Source: Atractiella rhizophila
Taxonomy: Eukaryota
Assembly (NCBI GenBank): GCA_021432655.1
Contig: MU271493.1
Location: 1 to 53,265 of the forward strand
Length of the DNA stretch: 53,265 nt
Direction of reading: 5' to 3'
The notes under the pieces are model-generated. The model did not search any database. It was not told the DNA's origin and was given only the letters and a program-made list of their open reading frames with translations. Positions 21,501-45,586 of the stretch are shown one piece after another (the first letter of the stretch is position 1; every line of letters starts with the position of its first letter). The position numbers and the translations under genes are program-made.

Positions 21501-22222
21501 AAGAAAAGTTGATGCCAAGCTGGGCACTCCTTTGAAGATAGAAGGTGGGGCAAGTCTGATACCTGCATAAGGTGAAACTTGTGTAGTTTGAGGTATAGAG
21601 GGGGAGGAATGTGTCAGAGATGTCGGGTCTATCTTGGATGTAAGAGGGAAGTGGCCCCACTGTCTCTGGCAGATGGCAGTCTGGAGTGCAGCAGTTGTAG
21701 GATTTCTTTGTTTGTGTTTTGGATGGCGGACCTCAGTTGCACTATTTTCGTCAACTTTATAAGCTTTGGTTCTGAATTGATTTTTCAAAAATTGAGAGAG
21801 TATCTAACACTATGTATGGTCACCAACAGGCGATGCGTCTATAGTGGAGATAGATAACCTAAGTGGATGATATGATATGACAAGACTAACCTGTAGCAGA
21901 GAGAGAATACTCTAAGGTCACCTCCACTACTCTCCAATCGATATATAAGCGGAACAACACTGCTACAAAGTGTAGAAGAGAGCAGACGAAACATGTAAGT
22001 AAATCAAAAAGGGAAAGCGACAGAGGGATTGCGGGGTTAATACGAGGAGAATAGACACAACTGGGCTAAGTGGTGAGTGTAAATGGGCCAACAGGCGACA
22101 AGGAGACAGGGTGGCGAGGGGCGCCGATTGTAGAATGCAAACGGGCAAAGAGGACCTGATTCATGGGGAACACCAATCGGCGATAGGAGACATAATCCAG
22201 CAAACTGGTGCCGATTTGCACA
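18530..22222 (-). mobile_element. Degenerate Ty3/gypsy LTR retrotransposon (gag, protease, RT, RNase H relics; possible LTR ~21971-22222)
   Basis: Gag FPSEQSKILLTLSYIKEG (21297-21788); knuckle remnant CQKMGHREKEC (~20840); protease ALVNSG (~20410); RT DYHKLSDATVKDKTPLP, FGLYNSPVTF, FIYIDN (~19465); RNase H NYDTYDKEML..WRHLL (~18870-18925). Many stops and frameshifts. Confidence 0.85.
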
Positions 22223-25937: not shown

Positions 25938-26130
25938 ACTGGCAATTGCACGCGAGGTACCAAGTCAACGAAAATTTAATAACTGGATAAAACATCATGT
26001 TTCATGTAAAGAAATAATGCAAGTTTGAAGCTAATCTGCAACTGCTGATTTCAAAGAAACGAAGGAACGAGGGACCATGAAAAAGCGAAGTGGCTCATGC
26101 TGTAACACTATCTACGAAATGCAAAACTGA

Positions 26131-27433
26131 TCAAACCTCTTGATGAATTCTCGCTTCTGTAGCGAAGTAACCCCGACCCGAAGCAACGGAACTAGTGTCT
26201 CCAGGCTGCTTTTCACCCAAGGTTTCCAACCTAAACACGTCTCAAGTCAGTTTATTAGGTCGAAGTACATCAGATCGCATACCTGTTGAGTTGAGCAGAT
26301 ATTGACTGGGTGACAGGCTGACGAGTGATTTTTGGACTAATCTCTTTCAACAAGCCAAGGCGAACAAGGATGGCTCGATAGATCGTCCACGACTCCGCCC
26401 CAAAACCAAACAACACCAACGCAGAGACACCAGCGACGATGCCCGACCACGCCGGCCAAGATAGTCCCTGATCTGGGAGGACCAAGACGTCGGATAGCTA
26501 TAAAAGAGCGTTAGATTGAAGAAACTGGCATGAAACAAAACCTTACACTCTCGTGCCAGTAGCCCCATGAGATGTACGGCGTAAGAGGTACCGAGTTCAG
26601 GAAATCCAACGTGCCCTTCACGCTCATAGGGGTAAAGATGAATACGTAACTGGCGGACAAGGCGCAGAGTCGGATGAAGCGAGAGAGAGTAATAGCCTGA
26701 CTGGACCCTTCCACGATTCTTTTGAAGTCGCGCCGATGCTTGAGAGCGCGAAAGATGATATAAACTACCAACAAACTCTCAGAACAGCTACAGAGTGAAA
26801 AGCAGAGACGAACCTGCACATATGGCTCCAAGGAATTGCAACAGAGTACTCCACACCAGCCATAACACAAGAGTCGCCCATGTTGGTGAAAATGTGAAGG
26901 CGCAACCGAGTCCTTTGACCAGCCCGAATCGACGGGATTGGTGAACAATGTGAAGAGCCATCAAAAGGACAGGGAAACCAAGGCAAAAGGCATATTCTTT
27001 AAGATGTCGACGCTGTTGACTTCGATGGCTGATCAAGAACGCTGTAGGGCTTAAGATTTGTGCCAGGTAGAGCGAAATGCAGAGAATGGACGCTCCCAAG
27101 CCAACTGGGGCGAACTGTTCGACCTGAGCGCATGGATCAGAAATATCAATAGCAGAGCCCAATGAACTAACCTTGGCAGAAATGTCACACCAAATTGGAG
27201 CGCGGTTGACGGCATCATTACGCCAGACAACGCAGTTGACCTGCTCGAGTTTAGAACGGATGGGATTAGGACATCTGAGAACGTACGAAAGCAATGAAAT
27301 TCAGTAACACAGTCCAAAACCCAAGGCAGAAACCCGAAGCATTGCCCTGTTGAAGATGCCAGGCCGTGGGGGCGAGATTAAGCAAGAATGAGAGGAAACT
27401 CAGAATGGTATAGATGATTGTAGTGGTCTCCAT
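26131..27433 (-). CDS. STE3: STE3-family mating pheromone receptor (7-TM GPCR); multi-exon
   Basis: METTTIIYTILSFLSFLLNLAPTAWHLQQGN...VNCVVWRNDAVNRAPIWCDISAK...ALHIVHQSRRFGLVKGLGC...ITLSRFIRL...PYISWGYWH...FGFGAE. Last exon ends ARIHQEV* at 26131. Confidence 0.95.
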
Positions 27434-28193
27434 TGTCAATCAGTGCTGTGGGTAGCAGATCCATTGTTGAGTCCTTTTATATGACCGGACTTGATGGCTT
27501 TGCGAACAACGAAGAAGAGGTCAAGATCTCGGTATCAAAACATCGTTCATCCGGAGTAAGTTTACCGGATTCGTGCTCCGGATCGCGCAGTCGTTTAGTT
27601 TTACCGTTGGGCGGAATAATTAATCAAACCTTATCTTGTGTCAACGTTTCTTTGGTCCGAACTCATGGCAAACAGCTGACAATAAACTATTGGTCCCATG
27701 ATATGATATGGTAACAATGCAGTACTAGTGACGCCAGTATCGAAAAATCTTTTTTAATGTGCATGCATCATATCTCCTGATTGATGCTAAGCGAGAAATA
27801 CAGCAAGGCGATTCCAGGTCTCAGTTTCCCACAAACACAGTGGCCACAGCGCTGAGCTGTAATAACCTGAATGTTCAAAAAGGGTTCATGACACAAAAAG
27901 ATGCTATTTACTTCTGACAATGTGGGGTTCAAGGCAAAATGTGACCGGAAATCCTACATCTCTAACTCGGTGCTTCGAGATGAATGCAAATACTTCGACA
28001 CTGTGCACAAGCAAAGCAGACACGTCACATGAGTCACATGAGTCACACGTCGAAGACTATTATTGTTTCTTGTCAAATAGGGCAAACACAAACAATAAGC
28101 AAATCTTAAACTCTCACTGACTTGCGCCTTCACTTTCAATCGTTGAAGCTTGGTGGGGTGTTTTCGGAAAGGTATTATATCCAAAGCTTTGTC

Positions 28194-31100
28194 ATGGATT
28201 CAGAAGTCTCTACGAGCCTCGCAAATTCAGTGTCACCTGATTCTTCAGTTCGCGCCAGAGCGACGCAGGAGTTGGAGGATTTCTTCTCTCAGCGCCATGA
28301 TGAATATGTTCTGGCACTCTCTCGTATATTATCTTCAGTGGATCAACCTACGACCCTTCGAACGTCCGCTGGTCTCACCCTGAAAAACACACTCACCTCT
28401 CGGGATTTTGCGCGCCAAAGCGACTTATTCACCAAATGGCGCTCAGTCTCACAAAATATACGTTCGACAATCAAAGCACAGAATCTACAAAGTCTAACGG
28501 ATCGCGAGAAGCTGGTGAGAAATGCTAGTGCACAAGTTATCGCTGCAATTGCTGCCATTGAGATACCAACGGGGCAATGGAATGATTTAGTGCGCATCCT
28601 GTTGGAGGGAATCCAAGACAGTCGAACGCGTGGGGAAGATGGTGCAATGGTGCGGCAGAGCATGCTTCAATGCCTTGGTTATGTTTGCGAACAGATTGTG
28701 AGCTCCCTGAGATGGCATGTTTTCTTCAGGTCTAATTGATGATATAGAAATCTGACGTCTTGGCGACACAATCCAACGAGATTTTAACTTGTGTGGTGCA
28801 GTCTGTGAAGGAAGAAACGAAGTTGTGTTTTAGATTTCAATTGAAGGTGGCTGACGTATTATCTTGCAGTCACGAAGTGCAACTTGCTGCTATCCATGCT
28901 CTGTACAATTCTCTGGAGTTTATCAAGGAGAACTTTGATCGTGAGGTATCTGTCTTTGTATGATTGGGAATCGGTCGAAGCTAACAAATAACATTTTAGG
29001 GAGAGCGGAATTACATCATGCAGGTTGTTTGTGAAGCGACCCAGATCACTAATGCTGAGGTGCAACTCGCTGCCTTTGAATGTCTGGTCCGAATCATGCA
29101 ACTCTATTACGAAAAAATGAAGTTCTATATGGAACGGGCTCTCTTTGGAGTAAGCTCAGCAAAGCTTTCGCCCAACGGCTGATCGTCATTTTAGCTCACT
29201 GTGCTCGGGATGAGACATACGGATGAGCGAATTGCAATCCAAGCGGTCGAATTCTGGTCCACTGTGTGTGACGAAGAACTGGAACTTTCCCTGGAGGCAG
29301 AGGAAGCCGCTGAGTACGGAGATCAACCAGAGAGACAATCGTACGGCTTTGCGAGGGTTGCTCTCCCAGAAATACTACCAGTGTTGCTACAGCTGCTCGG
29401 TCGTCAAGAAGAGGATGCCTCGGAGGATGAATGGAATCTCGCTATGGCTGCTGGCACTTGCTTAGCCTTGCTCGCTCAGGTCACTGGAGATGTGATCGTC
29501 GCTCCAATTATCCCTTTCGTTGAGACGCACATCAAATCAACGGACTGGCGGCAGCGTGAAGCAGCAGTTACAGCATTCGGGTCGATTCTCGACGGCCCCA
29601 ATACTCAAATCCTCGCTCCCCTCGTTCAGCAAGCTCTTCCCGTCCTGGTTGGAATGATGCAGGACCCTAATCCGCATGTCAAAGATTCAACGGCGTGGAC
29701 GCTAGGTCGGATTTGTGACTACATGGTAGACACTATTCAAACAATACAAGGTGCCGTGGGCCATCTTGTTCAGGCCTTTCTTGGCGCCCTGGAAGCTGGA
29801 GTGCAAGACGGAGAGGGTCGCATTGTCAGCAACAGTTGCTGGGCTCTCATGAATTTGGTCGAACAGCTCGCTGGGCCGAACAAGGAGACAAGCGATTTGT
29901 CTTCATTCTACGACCCCTTGGCAACTTCACTGTTCAACTTCGCAGAACGGTAACATCTTGTCTTATTCTCGACAACAAGGCTAATCTGATATGCTACACT
30001 AGGGTACAGAATGAAAGCAACTGCCGTGATTCCGCGTACGAAGCGCTCGCCACCCTCGCTGCCAACGCCCCTACAGATTGTTTACATCTTGTCCACAAGA
30101 TGCTCCAAGGCATAATAGACCGAATTGAGAACGTAATGACTTTCCACGATCAACTCGTTGGTATGGATGACAAGGCGAATTGGAATCAGCTACAAATAAA
30201 CTGTTGCTGTGTTTTAACTGTGTGTTCCTCGCTCCGTTCTTAGCACTATCTGACTGTTCTGTGGCAAGTCTTGCATTCGACGCTTGGGCAAGGAGATACG
30301 GAGCTTGCAGCCTGAACGTATAATCACGGCACTTTTAAGCCTCCTACAGATTAGCGGCAGATCATCCCCTATCCAAGAGGATGCCTTCTTGGCAGTTGGA
30401 GCTTTGACCGCCGCCCTTGAACAAGACTTTCATACATATCTTCAAGCATTTTTGCCATTCCTCTTCGCGGCTCTTCGAAACCACGAGGATTATCAGCTTT
30501 GTTCAATTGCTGTGGGATTGGTTGGAGATATATGCCGAGCCCTAGGAGAGGGCAGCGTTCAATATTGTCAAGGGTTTCTTGAAATGCTCATGCAAGATTT
30601 GCAGAGCGCTGTTCTGCATCGGAGCGTGAAACCACCTATTTTAAGCTGCTTTGGAGATATCGCTATGTCTATAGGGGGATCTTATGTGCCTTTCCTCGAG
30701 TCTACTATGACAGTGCTGCAACAAGCTGGTGCCATGAGAGCTGATCCGGTTCGTCTGACCACCATCTGCTATCAGGTCTGCTCACTGTCTCTAGAACAAC
30801 TTCGACCTTGTCGATTATATTAACACTCTTCGGGAAGGAATTCTTGAAGCCTATACAGGGATCGTCGGTGGCCTGAAAGCGGCCGGGAAACTGGACTCAC
30901 TTCTTCCGTACACGCCATCGATTTTCACTTTTCTTCATCTTGCCCTAACAGATCAAGATCGACCAGAATCGATTCTTGTTTCTGCGATCGGGCTCATTGG
31001 GGATCTAGCAGAAGGGTTTTCGGGTGGTCAGCTGAAGGATATTTTAACGTCAGCATGGATAGATCAGGTTTTGAAGACGGCAAAGACAAGGACGACTGAG

Positions 31101-31212
31101 AGTCATAAAAAGAAGGTGGTCAAATGGGCTAGAGAGGTAATCTGTCGTCACTTAGATTATGTCCGTGCACTAACAGAAGGCTGTTCAGATGGTCCGTAGA
31201 GCAACGCAGTAG
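28194..31212 (+). CDS. KAP95: Importin beta-1 (karyopherin beta); multi-exon
   Basis: IBN_N motif LRTSAGLTLKNTLT; QAVEFWSTVCDEE; EDEWNLAMAAGTCL; DWRQREAAVTAFGSILDGP; VKDSTAWTLGRI; LHRSVKPPILSCFGDIA. Confidence 0.96.
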
Positions 31213-31312
31213 TAGAAACTTTGTTGAGATGAAATGATATTTTTTTGCAATGAAATCGTGTACATTGGGCAAAACATTGGAACAACATTGCTTCCTAACC
31301 ATACGGCATAAA

Positions 31313-33317
31313 TTAGGTAGGGGGGGCTTGGCCTTCGAACAGCTTGACAAGACGGCCAACGCCGAGTTTAGCAGGGGGGACATTGCTCTGGGAGCGTGAA
31401 TGCTGTTTCCTAGTATCGGGATTCGGAGATGCAGGCAAGGAAGTCGTAAAACTTGAAGAACGCGTTCGAGACCTTCTGATATCAGTTGCGCCGGTGACTT
31501 GGCTCGTTGATCGAGTGGGAGCTATCAGCATTTCATGACTCCCTGTTTCGTATGACAATTGTATAGAGGCGCTATTGTCGACATTTAGTGTCGATGTTGA
31601 GGGTTGGATTGCCGTCGCCTCCAATGTCGCAATTTGCGGTGTAGACGTTGCCGTCACCATTCCTTCCTCCTCCAAATCAGATGGGGCAGACGTGCGCGCA
31701 AAGTCGGAACCAACAACAACATCTGAGGCTGAGTGTTCCGCACGAGCTTGGTGGCCAAGATATTTGATGGTTAATTCATCCATTTTGTCTTCCAGACGCT
31801 CAAGTTCCAAAGACCATTGCTGATTGAATGCTTTGATTATCGTCTCAGCACCTTGATCATAATTTTTCGAGCCGAGTTTCAGATCCTGTTCTAAACCTTT
31901 CAGCCTTGGAACCACCCATCTCTCTAGTTTCTCGAATCTCAACACGAGATCTACGAGAGTCCTTTCTATATCGATTTCACCATCCGATCTCAGAGCGATG
32001 TAAGGATGCTGTGGCGCAGACTGAGTCGACTGGGCGACGGTAGATAGAATCTTCTGTGATGCTGGAAGTACAGGGTGAGGAGAAGCATATTTCGAGCCGA
32101 CAGTGACATCTTTGCTGCTAGCAGTGTCCTCCCGATCGAAGACTGAACCCGTGCCAAATTCATTCAAAGAGCTTCGAGACAGATTTGGAGCGTGTGATGT
32201 GGCCATACGGGATGCTGAACCTCCCACAGAGGGCAACAGGCTCGGATTGACCACGTGTAGGGTGGCAGAACTAGCTGACGGAACAGTGGAGGCACTCGCA
32301 GGAGGTAACGAGCGGCGAGCTTGTTCAGCAATTTGTTGAGCTTCCGTGAGCCGCGTAGGCGAAGAAGTGGGGATGGCTTGGAGAGGCGACCATGGAGTTG
32401 CAAAAAAAGACTGAGATTCGGTGGAGGCACGAGCGAGGGGTTCATCGAGAAAGCGTGACAGTTTTCTAAATTTAAGTTAAGAAGAGGTGCTTTAGTTTCC
32501 GCGCAGAGTGAACGAACATCTCAGCCTCCTCCTTCTGATCGGAGTCCAAACCCAAATGGCCACTCTCACTCCCACTTCCTTCTGACATACTGATGGGAAA
32601 GCTAGGTAGACTTTTATTCCTATTGTTACTCATATCCCTCGGCCCCGCCAGGTACGTTCTTGGCCGTGCGACCTGAAAGCCAATGTTGTCATCTTCGCCC
32701 CCACTGATAGATGCATCGCTGCCCGTCCTTCCTCTACCAATGTTCATTCCAAACTTGAATCCACTTAGGAATCGACTTGCAAGCCCTGCTTCGGTTCTCG
32801 GGGTGGATAATGGTTTCGGACTCCCCAGTGGCGTGCTTGTAGGTGATTGTGTCGGAAACGACTGAGCTGTGAAAACACTGCTTGGCAGTTCAACGGGAGG
32901 AGAGACTTCTCTGGAGCTTGAAGGAGTGGGGGATTGCTGGGACAGGGTGGATAGTTCCGCATCACTGAGTTTTGGAGCTGGCTTTCTCCTGCCTCCTCTT
33001 TCCGGGTTGGGATTGATGTGGACAGGTGGCGGCGCAGACAGATGCGGGCCCCTATTCTCTCCATCTCGATATCGGGGCAGGTTTCTCACATAGGAGACAT
33101 CCTTTTCCTCGCTAGGGCTGCATTCGCCTCCACTGAGTTCGTCGTCTGTAAGGCCCTGCACTGTGGACTTCTTGACGACCTGGTGAACTTCGAAAGATGA
33201 GCGAGAAGGTGATCCTGGGAGTGAGAAGAAGGACGATCGTTTCCCAGTGGGGGAAGGTTGTGGTGAACGCTGAGGGGATATGGTTGGAGAATGTGAGTAG
33301 CGGCGCTGGGAGTCCAT
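31313..33317 (-). CDS. Ser/Pro-rich hypothetical protein with C-terminal coiled coil
   Basis: ORFs 32472-33446 and 31313-32254 on the same strand, joined by an intron; motif LRFEKLERWV. Likely start MDSQRRY at 33317. Confidence 0.65.
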
Positions 33318-33961
33318 GCAAAAGTGTCTGTCAGTCTCAATGGCGTTCAATGTAGCAAACACAGAAAGAAAGCATGATCGAGAGAGCAAACGTAGCTGAG
33401 ATCGGATATTTCCATAGTCCCGAACTAAAGCGTGTTCATGCTTCAAGTCTTTGTTGTTATGCCACGAATCATTTGATAGCGTTCAACCTCAAGTGCGCAC
33501 AAGCTCAAGCTCACAAGCATCCTGTTAGGCTTGGTCGATTGGACTGAGGAAAGTGGTTGGGATCGGATTCTACCATCACAACGCTGAAAGTAAGACAAAA
33601 ATTCAGAAATAACCGAAAGCTTGGGATGAAAGATAAATGTGTGGTAGTATACTACCAATAACACTTAAGCAATTTGAAGGGAAAGCAAAGGAACTACGGA
33701 GAACGAAGGTTATATCTAGATGCATGATGCTGGACTGCGAAAACGTAGGAACTGCAAACGAAAGTAAGTCGGACTCTTGAAGTCAAACAAAAATGTTTAA
33801 ATGCACAAAGGCAGCAGGAAAATTGAACCTCGACCGGAAGTGAGGAAGAGTCGAGGATGCGAATAGAGTTGTAAATTTTTGGGTGGCTTTTTCGTTTGAA
33901 TGAGTGCATGTCTGATAGCGGAGTTTAGTTTCAGTCGGAGTCCAGGAAAGAAGACAAACCA

Positions 33962-34246
33962 TTAAGCGACGATGCAGCCTCCACCGCCAGCGCTTCCACC
34001 ACCGTTCTTGGCGATAACACATCCTCCTCCACCAGCGCTTCCACCACCGTTCTTAGCGATGGTGCAGCCTCCACCGCCAGCGCTACCTCCACCGTTCTTG
34101 GTGATGGTGCAACCTCCGCCGCCAGCGCTACCGCCACCGTTCTTTGCGATTTCACAACCTCCTCCTCCAGCAGATCCACCGCCGTTAGCAGGGTTGGAGT
34201 CGACTGGGACTTCGACAGGATGGAGAGCGTATTGAAGGGGGTTCAT
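33962..34246 (-). CDS. Lipopeptide mating pheromone precursor, copy 1 (5 tandem CaaX repeats)
   Basis: 94 aa: a 20-aa leader, then NGGGSAGGGG-CEIA-K / -CTIT-K / -CTIA-K / -CVIA-K / -CIVA*. Lies 6.5 kb from STE3. Confidence 0.92.
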   Translation of the reverse strand: MNPLQYALHPVEVPVDSNPANGGGSAGGGGCEIAKNGGGSAGGGGCTITKNGGGSAGGGGCTIAKNGGGSAGGGGCVIAKNGGGSAGGGGCIVA

Positions 34247-34768
34247 GATGTTGTAGGAGCAGGTTAAGTTATTTCAAGATCTTGACAGCTGACAGCTACA
34301 GTAAACCTGATTTGTTTGGATAGCATCATTTAATCCGCCTTTATATATGCAATCGGTTCTAATACAAGGCATTAAGTTTGGCTGGACCGGTATCATCAGA
34401 CAACCCAGGTTTACGGTGGGCTATCTGTCCAGAATACCGGAACAGATAACAATGACGCCGAAGTATCCTCCATTTCGGTCTATTCTTTTTTGTAAGCGGA
34501 ACTGGATTGAATTATGTTGATATCAATGAAACCGTAACAATAGGAAGAAAGTTCCCTAAATTCGGTTTAGCAACAATGTACCGCAGATTTGGCAACAGAT
34601 GTTCGGTATTGCGGTCTGTTTCAGATCATTACGTACTACAAATGTTGCCTCCGCGGTACTGATTGTATATAAGCTTGTGAATGAATTGGATGGCCACTCT
34701 TCACCAAACAAATCAGGATTAGTTGACAGCTGTCAAGATCTCGGAAAGATTTAACTCACTCAGACATT
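34247..34768. promoter_or_regulatory. Bidirectional promoter of the pheromone pair (duplicated at 36239-36760)
   Basis: Outward-facing TATA boxes at 34340-34347 (minus) and 34666-34672 (plus), each ~95 bp from its ATG. TGTTTCA at 34617-34623; AACAAT x3. Confidence 0.7.
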
Positions 34769-35053
34769 ATGAACCCCCTTCAATACGCTCTCCATCCTGT
34801 CGAAGTCCCAGTCGACTCCAACCCTGCTAACGGCGGTGGATCTGCTGGAGGAGGAGGTTGTGAAATCGCAAAGAACGGTGGCGGTAGCGCTGGCGGCGGA
34901 GGTTGCACCATCACCAAGAACGGTGGAGGTAGCGCTGGCGGTGGAGGCTGCACCATCGCTAAGAACGGTGGTGGAAGCGCTGGTGGAGGAGGATGTGTTA
35001 TCGCCAAGAACGGTGGTGGAAGCGCTGGCGGTGGAGGCTGCATCGTCGCTTAA
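34769..35053 (+). CDS. Lipopeptide mating pheromone precursor, copy 2
   Basis: Same 94-aa protein as copy 1, in inverted orientation. Confidence 0.92.
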   Translation: MNPLQYALHPVEVPVDSNPANGGGSAGGGGCEIAKNGGGSAGGGGCTITKNGGGSAGGGGCTIAKNGGGSAGGGGCVIAKNGGGSAGGGGCIVA

Positions 35054-35586
35054 TGGTTTGTCTTCTTTCCTGGACTCCGACTGAAACTAAACTCCGCTAT
35101 CAGACATGCACTCATTCAAACGAAAAAGCCACCCAAAATTTACAACTCTATTCGCATGCTCGACTCTTCCTCACATCCGGTCGTGCTTCAATTTCCTCGT
35201 TCCCACGTCTTAATTCTTATTACTTCGCCTGTCGCTTTCTGCTTTCAAGTCATCGAAGTTCAAGAGTCCGACCTACCCTCCTTTCGCATCCCTTCTGCTG
35301 TTCTCAACAGAATTCATTTTGCGCTCTCGCATTGTGCATCTAGATCTCCCACCTTCGTTCAGACTCCATTTCCTTGTGATCCAATTAAGCGCATTGTTCG
35401 GTTTCTATGTTCCTCTGTCATGGCACTGTTATAGTCTCTGGTTTTCCCAACTTCGGCTCTTTCGTAGTGTTTGTCTTGCTTCTCGACGTCTGATACTAAA
35501 TGAATCATAACGTCTTTTTTTGTTGCATAAATATCGGCGTGTCCTTGTGGCCTTGCATGTTAGCGAGAGCACAGCATGAATTGCAT

Positions 35587-35868
35587 TCACAAAAGGGTAC
35601 AATTCGCCAAAACTTGAGTGACACGCTCTCCCATGACAGAACTCAGAGTCTCTACTTGCAGGAGGGAAGGGCCAGACGTGATCCAGTTCAGGGTAATTGG
35701 AAACGGGTCACCCTTTGCCACTGTTGCGAATCTCGCTAGGATCTTCGACCTTTCCGTTCTTGCATGCGGTTCTAGGTTCCAAACGAGCCTATTGGTCGAA
35801 GTGTCCATTTCTCCTTCCGGTCTAGCTTGATGCGATGTCACTGAATTTGGTATGAGTGCAGAGATAGA
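35587..35868 (-). pseudogene. Duplicated 3' fragment of the SYP1-like gene
   Basis: Encodes SISALIPNSVTSHQARPEG...LANCTLL*, matching the C-terminus of 37579-38652 except ETL vs EAL; cut at the duplication junction. Confidence 0.9.
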
Positions 35869-35953
35869 TTTTGGGTGGCTTTTTCGTTTGAATGAGTGCA
35901 TGTCTGATAGCGGAGTTTAGTTTCAGTCGGAGTCCAGGAAAGAAGACAAACCA

Positions 35954-36238
35954 TTAAGCGACGATGCAGCCTCCACCGCCAGCGCTTCCACCACCGTTCT
36001 TGGCGATAACACATCCTCCTCCACCAGCGCTTCCACCACCGTTCTTAGCGATGGTGCAGCCTCCACCGCCAGCGCTACCTCCACCGTTCTTGGTGATGGT
36101 GCAACCTCCGCCGCCAGCGCTACCGCCACCGTTCTTTGCGATTTCACAACCTCCTCCTCCAGCAGATCCACCGCCGTTAGCAGGGTTGGAGTCGACTGGG
36201 ACTTCGACAGGATGGAGAGCGTATTGAAGGGGGTTCAT
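35954..36238 (-). CDS. Lipopeptide mating pheromone precursor, copy 3
   Basis: Identical 94-aa ORF; equals copy 1 shifted by 1992 bp. Confidence 0.9.
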   Translation of the reverse strand: MNPLQYALHPVEVPVDSNPANGGGSAGGGGCEIAKNGGGSAGGGGCTITKNGGGSAGGGGCTIAKNGGGSAGGGGCVIAKNGGGSAGGGGCIVA

Positions 36239-36760
36239 GATGTTGTAGGAGCAGGTTAAGTTATTTCAAGATCTTGACAGCTGACAGCTACAGTAAACCT
36301 GATTTGTTTGGATAGCATCATTTAATCCGCCTTTATATATGCAATCGGTTCTAATACAAGGCATTAAGTTTGGCTGGACCGGTATCATCAGACAACCCAG
36401 GTTTACGGTGGGCTATCTGTCCAGAATACCGGAACAGATAACAATGACGCCGAAGTATCCTCCATTTCGGTCTATTCTTTTTTGTAAGCGGAACTGGATT
36501 GAATTATGTTGATATCAATGAAACCGTAACAATAGGAAGAAAGTTCCCTAAATTCGGTTTAGCAACAATGTACCGCAGATTTGGCAACAGATGTTCGGTA
36601 TTGCGGTCTGTTTCAGATCATTACGTACTACAAATGTTGCCTCCGCGGTACTGATTGTATATAAGCTTGTGAATGAATTGGATGGCCACTCTTCACCAAA
36701 CAAATCAGGATTAGTTGACAGCTGTCAAGATCTCGGAAAGATTTAACTCACTCAGACATT

Positions 36761-37045
36761 ATGAACCCCCTTCAATACGCTCTCCATCCTGTCGAAGTCC
36801 CAGTCGACTCCAACCCTGCTAACGGCGGTGGATCTGCTGGAGGAGGAGGTTGTGAAATCGCAAAGAACGGTGGCGGTAGCGCTGGCGGCGGAGGTTGCAC
36901 CATCACCAAGAACGGTGGAGGTAGCGCTGGCGGTGGAGGCTGCACCATCGCTAAGAACGGTGGTGGAAGCGCTGGTGGAGGAGGATGTGTTATCGCCAAG
37001 AACGGTGGTGGAAGCGCTGGCGGTGGAGGCTGCATCGTCGCTTAA
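36761..37045 (+). CDS. Lipopeptide mating pheromone precursor, copy 4
   Basis: Identical 94-aa ORF; equals copy 2 shifted by 1992 bp. Confidence 0.9.
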   Translation: MNPLQYALHPVEVPVDSNPANGGGSAGGGGCEIAKNGGGSAGGGGCTITKNGGGSAGGGGCTIAKNGGGSAGGGGCVIAKNGGGSAGGGGCIVA

Positions 37046-37578
37046 TGGTTTGTCTTCTTTCCTGGACTCCGACTGAAACTAAACTCCGCTATCAGACATG
37101 CACTCATTCAAACGAAAAAGCCACCCAAAATTTACAACTCTATTCGCATGCTCGACTCTTCCTCACATCCGGTCGTGCTTCAATTTCCTCGTTCCCACGT
37201 CTTAATTCTTATTACTTCGCCTGTCGCTTTCTGCTTTCAAGTCATCGAAGTTCAAGAGTCCGACCTACCCTCCTTTCGCATCCCTTCTGCTGTTCTCAAC
37301 AGAATTCATTTTGCGCTCTCGCATTGTGCATCTAGATCTCCCACCTTCGTTCAGACTCCATTTCCTTGTGATCCAATTAAGCGCATTGTTCGGTTTCTAT
37401 GTTCCTCTGTCATGGCACTGTTATAGTCTCTGGTTTTCCCAACTTCGGCTCTTTCGTAGTGTTTGTCTTGCTTCTCGACGTCTGATACTAAATGAATCAT
37501 AACGTCTTTTTTTGTTGCATAAATATCGGCGTGTCCTTGTGGCCTTGCATGTTAGCGAGAGCACAGCATGAATTGCAT

Positions 37579-40374
37579 TCACAAAAGGGTACAATTCGCC
37601 AAAACTTGAGTGACACGCTCTCCCATGACAGAACTCAGAGCCTCTACTTGCAGAAGGGAAGGGCCAGACGTGATCCAGTTCAGGGTAATTGGAAACGGGT
37701 CACCCTTTGCCACTGTTGCGAATCTCGCTAGGATCTTCGACCTTTCCGTTCTTGCATGCGGTTCTAGGTTCCAAACGAGCCTATTGGTCGAAGTGTCCAT
37801 TTCTCCTTCCGGTCTAGCTTGATGCGATGTCACTGAATTTGGTATGAGTGCAGAGATAGAAAGATTATCAAGCGACAGTAGGTTAAGTGGGTATCCAGAA
37901 TTTGGTTCATAAGAAACGATGAGAGAGGTGAGGTGTTCTTCCGTTTTCCAAGCTGTTCTCGCATGTAAGGGGATCGAGATATCCCCTTTGACAGTATAGT
38001 GAAGTAAGGGGAGGCCCCCGAATATAAAACCCGAGTTTTGGAAGCAGCGCTTGTCGATTATGTATCGATTGAGGACTGAAGGATGGGCAGAAACGAGATC
38101 GTTGAGCACACTGATGGTCTCGATGTTGGCTGACGGCACGACGTCGAACTCGACATCAGGAATGGGAGCGCTTTCCGTCTTTTTCGAGTTCGAAGGAGAG
38201 ACGACGATTGTGCCCGAAACCGTAGCAGGTCCAACAACTCCGTTGTGGCTCGTGACACTAATTTCCTCCTGGACTTTCACCACGATTGTCGCAGGCTGCG
38301 AATGTCCATTCACGAGATTGTCGGGGATCGAAGCTGGCGAAGAGCTGAACGGATTCGCCGCAACCTCGTTTTCTGGAACAGGAGGTGGCAGGTGGGACGC
38401 GAATCCGTTAGGATTGAGGGGAAGCGGGGGGACGTCAGGCGAAGGCGCCGGTTTCTCTCCCCTCCTGCCTCTCGTCGTACCTCGCCTCGTGGGGCCAGTC
38501 GCAGAAGTCTTTGAGGAGAGAAGGGTGGATTGAATCCTCTGCAGTGCGGCTTGTCGTTCTGGGTCCTGTTCAGCGGGAGCTGGAGTGGAGACTGGGGCCG
38601 GCGCAATTGATAGAGTCATTTTTGTTGGCGTCCGACCACTACAATCATACATCGTTAGCTCAAACTCAAACAGAGAAGATTGTCAGGTTCGCTGTCAGAA
38701 TTTTAAAACTCTCGGCGCTTATCTTTGACGGGCAAGATTTGGTGCGGAGAAATTAACGAACCTGTCAGAATCCACTTCGACAGGTTGGCCTAAAGGATCA
38801 TCGTGACCTTTTGGAGGAATCGTGAAACCGTCAGCATCGACATTCTATGACGTTACTATCAGCAGAGCTCTACAGTAGATGAAATAACGAACAGCTTGAG
38901 GAGCAATTGTGGATCGCGGTTGCTCTTCCACCAGCACTTCCTCGCTTAAAATAGACCTATCATCTCTGGCTTGATGAAGCGAAGCAGACGGTGGATTGTT
39001 CTCGAAGCTAGCAATGGTGTAGCTCTTACTCTTCCTCCTCATCAAATTGGGGAGGAAGCTGCTCCTCGGTCCTCTCTCCCTACTGGAAGAGGGCATGGAC
39101 AGAGCGCTCGCGCCATCGTCGTCGCTTCGTCGCACAGCATTAGCAGGCTCTGCGTGCCCATGAAGGGAGGACGGAGGAGGCGTCAACGTGTTCTCGAGAT
39201 TGTCATTACTCGGTACGCGGTGCTGGTGGATCGTGTTCCGCCTCGTAGCCGAAGTGTTGGAAGAGGAGCGATCGCGTTTCATCAAGGACGACAAAGCAGA
39301 AAATTTAGGATTGGCGTGCGACTGAGCTTGGGCGTTCGTGCTATGAACAGAAGGCGTCGACGTCCTTGGCCGTTCCGGAAGCATAGGAGATGGAGAAGGT
39401 GGAGCAGCGTTGTTATTTGTGGTATTTGCCCTTGTAGACGGGGCGCGCAATCGCGTACCAAATTCTTGGGCTGCTTTCAATGCCCAGTCGTCCACCTCAG
39501 TCGTGCTTTCGATAGCGAGCGCATCCACCATCCCTCTCTCCGAAACCTCCATCCGTTCGCGTCCCATGTCATTCTGAATGGTTTGGTAGAGTGTAATGGA
39601 TTCCTTGACCTGGTCGATGGAACGGCGCCAAATTTGCTCTACGGCGGAGTAGTACGATGGGGAGAGCGAGGAATAGTTTGACAGCACGTTGCTGAGTTCA
39701 GCGCGGATACCGTCTACTTTGGACTGAGCAGCGGCGTAACCTTTAGAAGAGGAGGATGTCCCTTCGAGCTTTTTCTGAGCCTTTTGGAGCCGGTTGGTAC
39801 AGTCCTCGAAGTCTCGAATAATCTTCTCAACGTTGCCTTCCAGCTGCCAATACCATACATGACCGGCCCTCCAATAAAGTCAAAGAGCTCACCAATCGCA
39901 ACCTGTCCCATTCCGGCCCATTACCAAACGCTCTCAAGGGACCAAACACCTCGGCCTCGATCCGCCCTCTGAACTTGTCGTGGACGGACTGAATCGACTG
40001 GACTTCTTGAACACATAAAGAAGCTTTCAAGCTCTGTAAGAAAGGAGGGAGAGGAGGAACTGCGGAGCGCGTGGATGAGTTCTGTCATGCTTGGAACAAT
40101 GGGGAGCGTACGATTCGCAAACTCTTTTGGCAACTTGGATTTTGGAGGAGTCCGGGTGACAAGAGCGTCACAGTAGATTCGTTCGGCGTTCAGACGGTCT
40201 GCTAGCGACTGCAGGACATCGAATGTTAGACGCTATCTTGGAATGGAATAAAGTGGGACAAACCTGTGCGAGATCGTTTGAAATGAAGAACAGCGTTGAA
40301 CGGACGAGTCCTTGAGCCTTTGAGAAAGCCTGAGCGGGGGGAGCTTCAGCGAGAGTTGCCGCGAAGGAAGCCAT
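37579..40374 (-). CDS. SYP1: Muniscin / Syp1-like endocytic adaptor (F-BAR, low-complexity linker, mu-homology domain); multi-exon
   Basis: Helical N-terminus (MASFAATLAEAPPAQAF...VEAEVFGPLRAF, VKESITLYQTIQNDM), S/P-rich middle, ALQRIQSTL..TRGRR, and a beta-rich C-terminus (VKVQEEISV..SGTIVV, WKTEEHLTSLIVSYEPN, QARPEG..LVWNL). Confidence 0.78.
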
Positions 40375-41918: not shown

Positions 41919-42547
41919 TTAAACCAGATCGGGAAGGTCCTCATCATCATCAGCATCCTTCTCCCTCTCCGCCGCTTTCCCTTTCTTTCCTTTCCCTTTC
42001 CCTGCCTTTGTAGACGCCCTCTTCTCCTTCCTAGACAGTCTCTCGGGGGATAGTTTGGGGGAATTGGCAGCTACCAGCTTGGACGTGCGTGCGAGAGCCG
42101 CCTATTCACAAAGTCAACGAGGACGCGGGGAAGAAATTGAGGGAAATAACGCGCCTTGTAAAGGTCAGGTCGCTCGTAAGAGTCTACAAGCTTAGCGACT
42201 TGTCGGGAAGCGTTGCTAGCTCCTTGCGTGCGCACTTTCTTGGATTGCAATCCGCTGGAGACGGCGGTGGGGGTAGCATCGGTCTTTCTGGTCTTGATCA
42301 CAACTGCGCTTCCATCGTGGGAGAGATGAATTGGCTAAGCAGCTCGAACGTTTCAAACCTACTTCTTGAAGAGGAAGGAGGAACTTACCCTCTTCTCGGA
42401 GATGCCAGAGAACTTCTTCGAGTGCACATTGGCGACGTTTCCGGGCTCCGAGGAAAAGTGTACTCCGTACTTGGTCTTGTGGAGCTTGGAGTTGTGTCCT
42501 CGGACGAGGAGCCAGATGAGATCGGAAGAGACTGCTGAGGAGGTCAT
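41919..42547 (-). CDS. RPL28: 60S ribosomal protein eL28 (L28e); 3 exons
   Basis: MTSSAVSSDLIWLLVRGHNS...FSSEPGNVANVHSKKFSG...YERPDLYK|AALARTSKL...DDDEDLPDLV*. Confidence 0.92.
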
Positions 42548-42926
42548 TTTGGCGTTGGCAAAAGGAAAACAGGGAGCCTCGATTGTCACTGTTTGGACGT
42601 CGTGGCGATAAGAGAAATGCCGAGGTTCGTACCCGCGCACAGGAAAGCTTCCCCAGCCCCAGAGAACCACAAACGACCAACAAATCTCGCAAGGAGATCC
42701 TGAAGAGGATCCTAAGGCTACTTGTTGAGGAAGACAGTAGAAGCTGTTTGGAGGCGTAGAAATTGGACTACGAAGGAGAGAAGCTGTTGGATTGGAAATA
42801 TTAGTTTGGCGATCAAGGGTCAAGGGACCATGAGCAGATTATCGGTAAGACATCCCTCTCTGACATTACAGGATAGCGGTTCAAAAAGCGCCGATAAAGG
42901 GATTTGATTACGACTCCGTGACGGAG

Positions 42927-45586
42927 ATGTACCTCTCTTCCATACCTTCTCCTAGCTCTCCGCACTTCGCCCAATCTCCTTTCAAAGACGACGCGGATGC
43001 CACCCCAACAACCACCACTTTCAGTTTCTCCCCCCTTGCGTCTCCCAATCCCGCGTTTCAGCGCTCCCCATCCGCCGCTGACATCTACGCTTCCTCCTCC
43101 ATGCAGTCTCCAACCTTCGGAAACAATTTCATCCATCCCTTCACCATTGCGCGCTCTACGTCGATTTCTGGCTCTAAGATTCATAAACGCAATGCTTCGA
43201 ACGCATCCAGAGTCTGGATTTCCTCTCGACCTTCGTTGGACCATACCAACATGTCAGGCCTCATGCGATTGAGTATGGATACGGCGGAATTGAAGAGTTT
43301 GGAACAAATTGCCAACCTGCGGATCGAAGATTCACCTCTCACGCCTGCTCTCACGCCTTCCTCTTCCGTATCAGACGCAAAGAAGCGTGGATCTTTCCGC
43401 AACGTCCTCGGATCCCCTTCTAGTCCCTCTCCCAAGCGTGCAAGCTCTGGTTTTGCCAATCTAGCTGCAGCAGCGGATCGACGGAGCAGTATCACCGCTA
43501 GCGCAATGGCGAGACAGAATTCTTTGGTAGGAATGTCGAACGTGAACAGGCGACATAGCCGACAGATGAGCAGAGCGCTCGCTGCTCCTCCTCCTCCAAG
43601 GAGAGCCGTTGGACTCGATCCGAAGGGTGTGCTGGAGAGGATTGCAAATGGCGGACTTAGGGGTCTGATGATTGTTGACGTGCGGCCAGTTGCGACTTAC
43701 ATGGACGATGGCAGGCTTAAAGGCAGCTTGTAAGATCTCATCTTGTTTTGCGCCGTGCTAAGTTGCTGCAGGAACGCGAATTTTCCCACTCTGCTCCTAA
43801 AGCGGTACAGGAGAGGACACCATTCCAGCTTCTCCCTCGAATCTTTTATCACCACGGATGCAGGCCGAGCGACCTTTCACCGCTGTTTGACAGGTTCAAA
43901 ATCAGGCACATTGGGCGACCTGGACGTCCTTGTTGTCGACGACGAGATCTCCGAACTTGAAGTGCGGGGTACCACATCGCTTAATCCCGGCTGTGTTCTT
44001 CTCTCTGTACTTGAGAAATTGTCGAATGATGAGTCGAATCGAAGCACCGGGGAGCTTTACTTCCTCGCTGGCAAATTCTCCGATCTTCAAGCGCTCGACA
44101 GCCAGAAGGCGTTTGTGGTAGCTTCAGAATCCGATGACCCATCGTCTTCTCCTGTAGAAATGCCAACACCGCAACCTTCCTCAGGTTCGAAGCCCACTCC
44201 CCCATCCCTCACGCTCTCACGCCCGTCGATTTCGGAGAATGACCCGCCATCAAACACCCCACGAACCACAGTCCTCCATCCTCCTAACACTCCTCGCGCT
44301 CTTCCAATCCTGAACACCTCCCGTCGTCCCAAGCAGCTCGAGCTCAAACTCGATACCTCTGTGGGAGGTCACAAGCAACGAGCACCTCCTTCAGCACTCC
44401 CTCTGAATACTCCACTGAAGACAAACTTCGGCGCACCACCAAAGACGCCTAGAGCTGCTCCTCCCCCCCTCAAACTGTTGACGACATCTCATGCCCACGA
44501 GCCAAACTCTCATTCTAACCTTGCAACTGGCGCGCCATTGCGCGATCCGTCAGACTATGCCTCGTCTCCTCATCCCGGTGCCGGTCGAGATGCTGATACT
44601 CCAATTTCTCCAGCGCCGTCCACTAATCCAGATGTGACTTTCAGCGTCAGCACCATTATTCCAGGATTTCTCTATCTTGGTCCAGAACCCACGTGCATGC
44701 CCGATGTCAATGTGCTTAAAGATCTGGGTGTAAAGAGAATCCTCAACATGGCACTCGAATGTCCGATATTGCCGCAGGAATGGCGGGATGCGGGAGGGAT
44801 CAAAGAGTATAAGAGGATTGGGATGAAAGATTTTGTGGAGGAAGTCGGCGTACAAGGTCGCATGGATGAAGCTTGTAAGCTCATGGGTGCGTTTTCTCTG
44901 CTCGACATCTCTGTTGAGGCTGATTGACGGTATTGTCGTGATAGACGATGCACAGCTAAGGGATGAGCCGGTTTACGTGCATTGCAAAGCGGGAAGGAGT
45001 AGAAGTGTAACGATGGTGCTTGCATTCCTGATACATCGGTAAGTTGCCATCGAATCTTCCGTTACAGCTGACGATCCTCATTTTGTTTGCGACAGGAATA
45101 ACTGGCCTCTTAAGAAAGCATACGCGCACGTCAGTGAGCGAAGACCTGGCATTTCTCCGAGTCCGTTTCTGTCATTTTGTCTCGCTGAATTCTCTGACCT
45201 CCGCCTTATCAGACATCGGTTTCGTCTCCGAGCTCATGAAATTTGAAGAGCGTACAATTTCGTCGACGCGTCAGACGATCGAGAATGTGGCCTCCACCTA
45301 CCACGCAACTAATCCAGATCTGAAGGCACCAGAGCGTCCACCGTTCAATGCATTCTACTCTGCTCCTCTTCCACGCACCCAGAGGGACAGTATGCCTCCT
45401 CCAGCTAGTTCATCACTTAAACCAGGGCCTGGCTGGAGGGGAGAGATGAGGAAGGGCGATGGAAGCTGGGCTGTAGAGGGACGGGATATGGACCTGCCTC
45501 GACGGTATGTACTCTCTCGTCCACCATTCCCATCTGACACTTGTTGATCTAGTGCAAGTAAAGCTGGTCTGGAGAGTAGTTTTTGA
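42927..45586 (+). CDS. Rhodanese-domain dual-specificity (MAP kinase) phosphatase; multi-exon
   Basis: IVDVRP...RLKGS|NANFPTLLLKRYRR (rhodanese/KIM-like); STIIPGFLYLG, LGVKRILNMALEC; catalytic VHCKAGRSRS (HCX5R); NIGF-like ISP|DIGFVSELMKFE; ends RASKAGLESSF*. Confidence 0.88.

What the first reader, a model, noticed from the sequence alone, without database searches (positions are those of the whole stretch)
33962..37045. Near information-free poly-glycine lipopeptide pheromone made from a five-repeat CaaX polyprotein
Seen: each 94-aa precursor has five invariant NGGGSAGGGGC cores on a 45-bp period, each followed by aaX (EIA, TIT, TIA, VIA, IVA) and a single Lys spacer; only the last CaaX is C-terminal. 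The cores differ only at synonymous sites (e.g. ggcggtggatct vs ggtggcggtagc vs ggtggtggaagc), which points to selection on the peptide. Known: tandem CaaX-K precursors occur in Pucciniomycotina (rhodotorucine A type), but the mature pheromones I know carry bulky or charged specificity residues. Inference: the mature signal is (N)GGGSAGGGGC-farnesyl-OMe, 7 of 11 residues Gly, so specificity would rest on Asn/Ser/Ala spacing or length. Internal copies also need an endoprotease plus Lys trimming to expose each CaaX.
Basis: partly seen in the sequence, partly recalled or inferred. Interest (0 to 1): 0.85.

Follow-up and report, generated by a model that had tools for sequence, protein, structure and literature searches.

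The report
Glycine-rich tandem mating pheromone genes
Four identical small genes next to a fungal pheromone-receptor gene each encode five copies of a glycine-rich peptide ending in a lipid-attachment signal, which makes them an ordinary type of basidiomycete mating-pheromone gene with an unusually plain peptide.

Summary
The window holds four DNA-identical 94-codon ORFs in two divergent pairs. Each has five NGGGSAGGGGC cores followed by aaX and Lys. All 58 pairwise nucleotide differences between cores are synonymous, whereas aaX varies but stays CaaX-compatible.

The genes lie 6.5 kb from a six-exon STE3 receptor gene, with an importin-beta (KAP95-like) gene in between. NCBI names the STE3 product as Atractiella rhizophila, on a contig as long as the window.

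Spliced RNA contigs from three runs cover the coding sequence. They bridge a 48-nt GT..AG intron that starts 2 nt after the stop codon, on the strand of the CaaX ORF.

The layout matches the tandem CaaX pheromone precursors of Pucciniomycotina: Rhodotorula/Sporidiobolus RHA, Microbotryum a1 and rust MFA1. So this is a new member of a known kind, apparently the first for Atractiellomycetes in the literature I could search.

The peptide is a real outlier in composition: 7 of 11 residues are Gly, and none is bulky or charged. It is not "information-free", because every position is held constant under synonymous turnover.

The mature lipopeptide, its receptor and its activity remain untested. A second, 37%-identical STE3 of the same species lies on another contig.

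The parts
33962..34246 (-). Pheromone precursor gene, copy 1 (94 codons, five NGGGSAGGGGC-aaX units)
   Evidence: ORF; repeat anatomy; RNA contigs cover 33960-34298 in X3, X4 and X8
34769..35053 (+). Pheromone precursor gene, copy 2, divergent partner of copy 1
   Evidence: CDS identical to copy 1. RNA contigs of X3 and X4 carry the 5'UTR variant of this copy type. DNA contig 5 of X1 links the arm to this side of the promoter.
35954..36238 (-). Pheromone precursor gene, copy 3
36761..37045 (+). Pheromone precursor gene, copy 4
33912..33959 (-). 48-nt 3'UTR intron (GTTTGT...TATCAG) starting 2 nt after the TAA stop of copy 1. Identical introns are predicted at 35056-35103 (+), 35904-35951 (-) and 37048-37095 (+).
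   Evidence: Joint 33911->33960 in RNA contigs of X3, X4 and X8; its ends read CT..AC on the + strand, which is GT..AG on the - strand. Splice-site letters are the same in all four copies.
34247..34768 (.). Divergent promoter of pair 1 (an identical one lies at 36239-36760). TATA-like elements at 34340-34347 and 34666-34671 sit about 95-100 nt upstream of each ATG. There are three AACAAT sites.
   Evidence: The motif enrichment is post hoc and only a hint.
33877..37823 (.). Direct duplication with a 1992-bp start-to-start spacing: a 1955-bp copy at 33877-35831 and a second at 35869-37823, with 2 mismatches (35649, 35662 in copy-1 coordinates). It carries the two gene pairs. Inverted arms lie at 33874-34251/34764-35141 and 35865-36243/36756-37134.
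26134..27433 (-). STE3-type pheromone receptor gene with six coding exons
   Evidence: Pfam PF02076, E 2.8e-34. NCBI-named protein P0001, 352 aa. Exon map by tblastn. Spliced RNA contigs with five CT..AC joints.
28110..31240 (+). Importin-beta (KAP95-like) gene between STE3 and the pheromone genes
   Evidence: Pfam IBN_N, HEAT_EZ and TPR_IMB1 (E 1.9e-65). Spliced RNA contigs with GT..AG joints. KAP95 belongs to the P/R-locus core in Rhodotorula.

Best explanation
These are the lipopeptide pheromone precursor genes of the pheromone/receptor (P/R) mating-type locus of a Pucciniomycotina fungus. The tool labels it Atractiella rhizophila, class Atractiellomycetes.

Shown here: the region holds four identical genes in two divergent pairs. 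Both copy types are transcribed and spliced. Each encodes five tandem 11-residue peptides, each followed by a CaaX-compatible triplet and, at the four internal sites, a Lys.

Inferred from the a-factor and rhodotorucine A pathways: the C-terminal CIVA is farnesylated by farnesyltransferase. The aaX triplet is then cut off and the Cys is carboxymethylated. An endoprotease releases the C-terminal unit at the Lys/Asn boundary, and a carboxypeptidase removes the exposed Lys. The next CaaX then becomes C-terminal and the cycle repeats, giving up to five molecules per precursor. An alternative order is endoproteolysis first.

The expected product is (N)GGGSAGGGGC(S-farnesyl)-OMe. It would be exported by a Ste6-type ABC transporter and sensed by the STE3 allele of a compatible partner.

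The glycine-rich peptide is under position-by-position constraint. I propose that recognition rests on the lipidated Cys plus a chain of fixed length that must lack side chains. In a system with two alleles such a signal only has to be told apart from one other pheromone.
For: Anatomy:
- Four DNA-identical 94-codon ORFs, each with five 15-residue units and only the last CaaX at the C-terminus.
- 20 core matches against 0 in 100 shuffles.

Selection:
- 58 of 58 pairwise core differences are synonymous, including TCT versus AGC for Ser.
- 27 of 99 possible single-base changes are synonymous, so 11 independent changes would all be silent with P about 6e-7.
- The aaX triplets change residues (a1 E/T/T/V/I, X A/T) but keep aliphatic I/V at a2. 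Lys is AAG at all four internal sites. This fits functional internal CaaX sites.

Strand and expression:
- Spliced contigs in X3, X4 and X8 cover the CDS and bridge an intron that is GT..AG on the ORF strand.
- X8 shows the 5'UTR of the minus-copy type; X3 and X4 show that of the plus-copy type.
- The antisense Pro-rich frame has 8 pairwise residue differences in the cores.

Context:
- STE3 lies 6.5 kb away and is also spliced and expressed.
- A KAP95-like gene lies between them. KAP95 is part of the P/R core in Rhodotorula (passages).
- No other CaaX pheromone-like ORF is in the window.

The leader is hydrophilic (GRAVY -0.175) with no hydrophobic signal-like stretch. This fits cytosolic processing.

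- Red-yeast RHA genes encode tandem pheromone peptides and sit in inverted repeats.
- The Microbotryum a1 precursor has three tandem copies of an 11-mer that is active as a synthetic farnesyl methyl ester. Sporidiobolales have four or five copies.
- Rust MFA1 has three tandem repeats.
Against: - There is no chemical or genetic evidence for the mature product, its prenylation or any mating response.
- The 94-aa protein has no exact match and no homologue in the large protein collection. It has no Pfam hit at E up to 10.
- There is no relative among metagenome contigs: 26 of 26 pattern hits were chance matches in unrelated frames. Conservation across species is therefore unshown.
- The peptide has 7 Gly of 11 and 0 bulky or charged residues. 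The five pheromones quoted in the papers I read have 3-6 such residues.
- CEIA has an acidic a1 residue.
- The canonical pheromone-response element ACAAAG occurs 0 times in the promoter. The AACAAT enrichment was noticed first and tested afterwards.
- Copy number is unverified. In DNA run X1 the arm contig has word depth 243 against 171.5 for flanking single-copy sequence, neither 4x nor 2x. Contigs 4 and 5 do prove at least one divergent pair.
- The runs were found because they hold this stretch, so they say nothing about other mating types.
- A sexual cycle and a compatible partner are not documented in anything I could read.
Confidence: 0.8

Rival explanations
1. Only the terminal CaaX is used. 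The gene would yield one farnesylated product, either a single C-terminal peptide or a 91-residue glycine-rich prenylated protein. The internal C-aaX-K units would be repeat copies that are never exposed.
For: Only the last CaaX is C-terminal. The enzymes that would process internal units are unknown even for rhodotorucine A (passage).
Against: The internal aaX triplets change residues but keep an aliphatic a2 and A/T at X, and Lys is invariant at all four junctions. That pattern is expected only if each internal site must become a working CaaX. The tandem precursors of Microbotryum and red yeasts are read as multi-copy sources.
Confidence: 0.08
2. The lipopeptide is made but is not, or is no longer, a mating-type discriminator. 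It could be an autocrine or self-signalling factor, for instance in a homothallic or asexual root endophyte, or a signal used during growth in roots.
For: STE3 and the pheromone genes both appear in spliced contigs of a root metatranscriptome (X8) and of X4. The same named species has a second STE3, only 36.6% identical, on another contig. That would allow a self-compatible set-up. No paper I could search describes mating in this species.
Against: Basal co-expression of receptor and pheromone genes is usual in haploid basidiomycetes (established knowledge, not tested here). The second STE3 may equally be the other allele of a dikaryotic isolate or an old paralogue. The window holds one receptor and one pheromone type, as in heterothallic P/R alleles.
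Confidence: 0.1
3. This is not a pheromone gene at all. It would be a glycine-rich (or, on the other strand, proline-rich) structural or secreted repeat protein, or non-coding repeat DNA.
For: The sequence is of low complexity and no homologue or family matches. The antisense strand has an 87-codon Pro-rich ORF.
Against: The intron orientation puts the mRNA on the CaaX-ORF strand. The antisense frame changes residues (Q/H, L/D) where the sense frame is silent. There is no hydrophobic signal-like N-terminus. The ORF ends in CaaX and has Lys-spaced 15-residue units, and STE3 is linked. Strictly synonymous variation argues against non-coding DNA.
Confidence: 0.02

Closest known systems
Rhodotorucine A precursors (RHA1-3 / RHA.A1) of Rhodotorula (Rhodosporidium) toruloides and other Sporidiobolales
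   Same: Small ORFs hold tandem copies of one peptide separated by CaaX-like spacers. There are four or five repeats. Several gene copies sit in inverted orientation inside the P/R locus next to STE3, and KAP95 is in the same locus.
   Different: There is no detectable sequence similarity. The peptide here is 7/11 Gly with no aromatic or charged residue. It comes from a different class (Atractiellomycetes). A 3'UTR intron lies directly after the stop codon.
Microbotryum a1 pheromone precursor
   Same: The pheromone is repeated in tandem, identically within and between loci, with very strong purifying selection. The mature synthetic form is an 11-residue farnesylated methyl ester.
   Different: It has three repeats rather than five. 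Its peptide, YPKATYTLPQC, has 0 Gly and 4 bulky or charged residues. Its activity has been shown by assay, whereas nothing has been assayed here.
Rust fungus MFA1 (linked to STE3.2-3)
   Same: The precursor has three tandem pheromone repeats and a terminal CaaX, and lies at the P/R locus of a Pucciniomycotina fungus.
   Different: The rust repeats are similar but not identical. The predicted peptide QWGNGSHMC carries Trp, His and Met. The distance to the receptor ranges from 10 kb to 0.5 Mb.
Saccharomyces cerevisiae a-factor (MFA1/MFA2) biogenesis pathway
   Same: It is a CaaX-terminated precursor without a signal peptide. It is farnesylated (Ram1/Ram2), loses aaX, is methylated by Ste14, has its N-terminus trimmed by Ste24 and Axl1, and is exported by Ste6 (passages). 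This is the pathway assumed here.
   Different: There is one pheromone per precursor and no internal CaaX-Lys units. None of the pathway genes could be looked for, because no genome is held for the window.
h-type pheromone precursors (HPP1) of Hypocreales
   Same: They hold several CaaX-type motifs within one precursor. Their authors compare them with rhodotorucine A.
   Different: They are ascomycete genes with different repeat structure and processing sites. There is no relation by sequence or locus.

Membership tests
Tandem-repeat CaaX lipopeptide pheromone precursor of Pucciniomycotina (RHA / Microbotryum a1 / rust MFA1 type) | Short ORF ending in Cys-aliphatic-aliphatic-X | tested here: met
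   94 codons ending in CIVA-stop
Tandem-repeat CaaX lipopeptide pheromone precursor of Pucciniomycotina (RHA / Microbotryum a1 / rust MFA1 type) | Tandem copies of one peptide, each followed by a CaaX-like spacer | tested here: met
   Five identical 11-residue cores. The spacers are EIA-K, TIT-K, TIA-K and VIA-K, and the terminal triplet is IVA. Period 45 bp.
Tandem-repeat CaaX lipopeptide pheromone precursor of Pucciniomycotina (RHA / Microbotryum a1 / rust MFA1 type) | Linked to a STE3-type receptor gene in the P/R locus | tested here: met
   The STE3 CDS is at 26134-27433 and the first pheromone gene starts at 33962
Tandem-repeat CaaX lipopeptide pheromone precursor of Pucciniomycotina (RHA / Microbotryum a1 / rust MFA1 type) | Several gene copies, often in inverted repeats | tested here: met
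   The assembly has four copies in two divergent pairs. At least one pair is confirmed by DNA contigs of X1. Depth does not confirm four copies.
Tandem-repeat CaaX lipopeptide pheromone precursor of Pucciniomycotina (RHA / Microbotryum a1 / rust MFA1 type) | Transcribed from the ORF strand | tested here: met
   Spliced RNA contigs in 3 of the 3 laid runs whose contigs are spliced. The intron is GT..AG on the ORF strand.
Tandem-repeat CaaX lipopeptide pheromone precursor of Pucciniomycotina (RHA / Microbotryum a1 / rust MFA1 type) | Purifying selection on the peptide moiety | tested here: met
   58 of 58 pairwise differences between cores are synonymous. This compares repeats within one gene only, because no orthologue was found.
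Tandem-repeat CaaX lipopeptide pheromone precursor of Pucciniomycotina (RHA / Microbotryum a1 / rust MFA1 type) | Sequence homology to known RHA/MFA precursors | tested here: inconclusive
   No hit in the protein collection or in Pfam. Such short genes are rarely annotated, and pheromones diverge beyond recognition.
Tandem-repeat CaaX lipopeptide pheromone precursor of Pucciniomycotina (RHA / Microbotryum a1 / rust MFA1 type) | Mature S-farnesylated, carboxymethylated peptide that triggers a mating response in the compatible type | not testable with these tools
   Needs mass spectrometry and bioassay.
STE3.A1 / STE3.A2 receptor allele classes of Microbotryomycetes (for the linked receptor) | Receptor groups with one of the two ancient allele classes | tested here: inconclusive
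   Quick tree of 55 of the 150 listed hits. The window's STE3 falls in the Pucciniomycotina clade (SH-aLRT 99) but in an unresolved polytomy. Source names seldom give the allele class.

The most novel reading that the evidence does not exclude
The mating signal is a lipopeptide whose peptide part is almost free of side chains. Its receptor would recognise it by exclusion, through a pocket that admits only a glycine backbone of fixed length with small polar marks (Asn, Ser, Ala) plus farnesyl-Cys-OMe. If so, a GPCR ligand of minimal chemical complexity still carries full positional constraint. The tandem 11+3+1 precursor design would then date back to the common ancestor of at least three Pucciniomycotina classes.
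Probability: 0.3. Interest if true: 0.65.

Novelty: new member of a known kind. Interest (0 to 1): 0.45.

Why it matters
This gives a first look at the pheromone/receptor locus of an Atractiellomycete, a root endophyte lineage. I found no paper on its mating genes: 5 papers hold 'Atractiella' with 'pheromone', none of them about its mating genes, and 15 hold the species name, none of which has it in title or abstract.

The tandem CaaX-Lys polyprotein design, inverted multi-copy genes and STE3-KAP95 linkage, known from Microbotryomycetes and partly from rusts, extend to a third class. That argues that the design is ancestral in Pucciniomycotina.

The peptide itself is cheap to synthesise. It is a natural test case for how much side-chain information a STE3 receptor needs. 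The expected masses make the chemistry directly checkable.

Tried and rejected
- **Whole-genome search.** No genome is held for the window. I could not look for farnesyltransferase, Ste14, Ste24, Rce1, Ste6 or HD genes, nor fetch the contig of the second STE3.
- **Searches with the 94-aa protein.** Exact look-up and homology search found nothing. Pfam found nothing for either frame at E up to 10.
- **Metagenome scan.** I scanned with a degenerate pattern for the repeat junction (GGC-x-[IV]-[AT]-K-NGG). It gave 26 loci, each with a single match. All 26 lie in unrelated frames or ORFs and none has a tandem CaaX structure.
- **Earlier findings of this scan.** Nothing by place, by sequence or by words.
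- **Peptide string in papers.** One hit, an unrelated DNA motif in a G-quadruplex paper.
- **Papers not held.** Akada et al. 1989 (PMC362396) and an id I recalled for the Coelho et al. 2017 review (PMC5467461) are not held. The rhodotorucine sequence and its Lys spacer are therefore recalled, not seen. Figures and PDF supplements with precursor alignments could not be seen either.
- **Response element.** The Ustilago-type ACAAAG(GGA) element occurs 0 times in the promoter.
- **AACAAT motif.** The 522-bp promoter has 3 sites, against a mean of 0.34 in 482 background windows, of which 0.6% reach 3. I chose the motif after reading the sequence, so it is only a hint.
- **Copy number from DNA depth.** Inconclusive. 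Depths are 243 (arm) and 208 (promoter) against 171.5 for single-copy sequence in X1, although contigs prove at least two arms.
- **Receptor allele class.** The A1/A2 class could not be assigned. The tree is unresolved and the careful tree search did not finish in the time allowed.
- **Other mating genes.** A Pfam scan of 145 stop-to-stop ORFs of 70 aa or more (22, 123) found no HD gene, no STE20 and no second STE3. The scan did not cover all ORFs: of 194 ORFs of 70-109 aa, 90 were scanned. The gene at 31316-33482 (-) has no family.
- **Parts without RNA cover.** Bins 34439-34700 and 27455-28036 have no cover in X3, X4 or X8. They lie between genes, and I draw no conclusion from them.
- **Antisense ORF.** The 87-codon Pro-rich ORF is rejected on intron orientation and on non-synonymous changes in its frame.
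Full report
**1. Observation**

Window positions 33962-37045 hold four ORFs of 94 codons: 33962-34246 (-), 34769-35053 (+), 35954-36238 (-) and 36761-37045 (+). Their coding DNA is identical.

Each ORF encodes a 20-residue leader followed by five 15-residue units. A unit is NGGGSAGGGGC, then EIA, TIT, TIA or VIA, then Lys. The last unit ends in IVA-stop. Tandem Repeats Finder gives a 45-bp period. A degenerate pattern for the core matches 20 times, against none in 100 shuffles.

The genes form two divergent pairs with 378-379-nt inverted arms that are 99% complementary. The pairs lie inside a direct duplication with a 1992-bp start-to-start spacing (33877-35831 / 35869-37823), and the two copies differ at only two positions.

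**2. Which frame is real**

The five cores differ at 10 of 33 columns, and all 58 pairwise differences are synonymous. Ser is TCT in unit 1 and AGC in units 2-5. Only 27 of 99 possible single-base changes in a core are silent. Eleven independent silent changes therefore have a chance of about 6e-7.

The opposite strand has an 87-codon Pro-rich ORF whose third codon positions coincide with those of the Gly frame. Most changes are silent there too. However, that frame shows Q/H and L/D replacements, 8 pairwise differences in all.

The aaX triplets change residues but keep I or V at the second aliphatic position and A or T at X. Lys is AAG at all four junctions. This is what one expects if every internal site must become a working CaaX box.

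**3. Transcription**

I laid contigs of four public runs on 26000-34700. X1 crosses all introns unspliced, so it is DNA. X3, X4 and X8 carry spliced contigs. X8 is on record as a root metatranscriptome.

In all three of these runs a contig covers the coding sequence (33960-34298). It is joined across 33912-33959, a 48-nt intron whose ends read CT..AC on the + strand, which is GT..AG on the strand of the CaaX ORF. The intron begins 2 nt after the TAA, so the protein is unchanged. The same splice-site letters are present in all four copies.

The X8 contig matches the minus-copy 5'UTR without a difference. The X3 and X4 contigs show the substitutions and indels of the plus-copy 5'UTR. Both copy types are therefore transcribed. 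As the tool advises, I do not rank expression by contig depth.

**4. Context**

Pfam finds a STE3 pheromone receptor at 26788-27300 (-) with E 2.8e-34. It finds an importin-beta gene at 28110-30823 (+) and a muniscin-type gene at 37579-38682 (-).

The STE3 exon retrieves an NCBI protein named 'STE3-domain-containing protein [Atractiella rhizophila]' on a contig of 53,265 bases, which is the length of the window. Its 352 residues map to six exons at 26134-27433. The five introns are confirmed by RNA joints.

No HD gene, STE20 or second STE3 turned up among the 145 ORFs scanned. No other CaaX pheromone-like ORF exists in the window.

Each ATG has a TATA-like element about 95-100 nt upstream. The shared 522-bp promoter holds three AACAAT sites, against a background mean of 0.34, with 0.6% of 482 windows reaching three. 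It holds no ACAAAG. I picked that motif after seeing the sequence, so it is only a hint of an HMG-box response element.

**5. Comparison with what is known**

The following comes from passages read with 'find'; figures and PDF supplements were not visible.

- Red-yeast RHA genes encode tandem pheromone peptides. They sit in conserved inverted repeats thought to be kept alike by gene conversion (PMC3236058).
- Inverted multi-copy RHA genes, and KAP95 within the P/R core, are recurrent in Rhodotorula (bioRxiv 10.1101/2025.09.11.675505).
- Microbotryum a1 precursors hold three identical tandem copies. The synthetic 11-mer YPKATYTLPQC(farnesyl)-OMe is active. Sporidiobolales have four or five repeats (PMC4675872).
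- Rust MFA1 has three tandem repeats, with predicted peptides such as QWGNGSHMC (PMC10977897).
- The a-factor pathway (Ram1/Ram2, aaX protease, Ste14, Ste24, Axl1, Ste6) is the model for the chemistry (PMC2134810).

I recall that rhodotorucine A is itself an 11-mer with an aaX-Lys spacer. I could not read that paper.

**6. Mechanism**

Shown here: the gene structure, selection on the peptide, CaaX-competent internal spacers, transcription and splicing, and linkage to STE3.

Inferred: farnesylation of the terminal CIVA, removal of aaX, and methylation. An endoprotease then releases the last unit at the Lys/Asn boundary, and a carboxypeptidase removes the Lys so that the next CaaX becomes terminal, and so on. 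The product is exported by an ABC transporter and sensed by a compatible STE3.

It is open whether Asn stays on the mature peptide. In ascomycete a-factors the cut lies after an Asn.

**7. The glycine question**

Seven of the 11 residues in the core are Gly, it uses five residue types, and none of them is bulky or charged. The five pheromones quoted in the papers I read have 0-2 Gly and 3-6 bulky or charged residues. The composition is thus a real outlier in that small comparison.

Low complexity is not low information. All eleven positions are invariant across five units under synonymous turnover. My reading is that the receptor requires the absence of side chains over a fixed length. This is a hypothesis and was not tested.

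**8. Limits**

- No homologue of the precursor was found anywhere. Selection is therefore shown only between repeats of one gene.
- Copy number is uncertain. X1 contigs prove one divergent pair, but depth (243 and 208 against 171.5) shows neither 2x nor 4x.
- X1 differs from the window at 8 of 7,907 positions, so it may be another isolate.
- The runs were chosen because they hold this locus, so they cannot reveal another mating type.

**9. A second receptor**

A full HMMER search with the STE3 found 1,373 hits at E up to 0.001. The third-ranked protein, counting the query itself, is a second 'STE3-domain-containing protein, partial [Atractiella rhizophila]'. It lies on a 31,706-base contig and is 36.6% identical over 298 residues.

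In a quick tree of 55 of the 150 listed hits, both proteins fall in a Pucciniomycotina clade (SH-aLRT 99). That clade also holds Mixia, red-yeast relatives and two rust groups. Both sit in an unresolved polytomy.

This second gene may be the other P/R allele of a dikaryotic isolate, an old paralogue, or part of a self-compatible set-up. It is the obvious candidate receptor for the glycine-rich pheromone. I could not fetch its contig.

**10. Verdict**

These are real, expressed genes, and very probably the pheromone precursors of the P/R locus. They are a new member of a known kind with an unusual peptide. Interest is moderate (0.45).

Noticed in passing
not in the window: protein P0008 (NCBI name, Atractiella rhizophila; contig of 31,706 bases): This is a second STE3 receptor of the same named species, only 36.6% identical to the window's STE3. 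It could be the alternate P/R allele, an old paralogue, or a sign of self-compatibility. It is the candidate receptor for the glycine-rich pheromone.
   Followed up: partly
window 33912-33959 (-), with identical sequence at 35056-35103 (+), 35904-35951 (-) and 37048-37095 (+): A 48-nt spliceosomal intron lies in the 3'UTR and starts just 2 nt after the stop codon of each pheromone gene. It is spliced in three RNA runs. Its purpose is unknown.
   Followed up: partly
window 26134-31240: STE3 lies directly beside an importin-beta (KAP95-like) gene. KAP95 is part of the conserved P/R-locus core in Rhodotorula and Leucosporidium according to a preprint. The linkage may therefore be older than the class Microbotryomycetes.
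   Followed up: partly
window 14000-24000: An A+T-richer block (GC 0.40-0.46, against 0.47-0.53 elsewhere) lies 2-12 kb from the 3' end of the STE3 gene (26134). It has few long ORFs and no Pfam hit. It may be degraded repeats of a region with little recombination.
   Followed up: no
window 2359-5010 (+): An 883-codon open frame carries reverse transcriptase (RVT_2, E 1.6e-57) and a retroviral SH3-like domain. It is a Ty1/copia-type retroelement on the same scaffold as the P/R genes.
   Followed up: no
window 34448, 34536, 34572 (+), also 34317 (-) and 34707 (+): The divergent pheromone promoter has three AACAAT and two further AACAAW sites. None of 482 background windows reaches five AACAAW sites. 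They could be HMG-box factor sites, but the motif was chosen after reading the sequence.
   Followed up: partly
window 27229 (STE3 exon) and 26204: The window reads A at 27229, where contigs of X1, X3 and X4 read G. At 26204, X1, X4 and X8 read T against the window's G. These are isolate polymorphisms or assembly errors.
   Followed up: no
window 31316-33482 (-): A two-exon gene of about 700 codons lies between KAP95 and the pheromone genes. An RNA joint at 32465/32518 confirms the splice. It matches no Pfam family even at E up to 1.
   Followed up: partly
window 11303-11802 (+), 7356-7736 (-), 42362-42838 (-), 44827-45039 (+), 47837-50941 (+): Ordinary neighbouring genes by Pfam are a malate/lactate dehydrogenase, a C2-domain protein, ribosomal protein L28e, a dual-specificity phosphatase and a weak, below-threshold match (25.1 bits against a cut-off of 30) to a GTF3C1-type winged-helix domain.
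   Followed up: no
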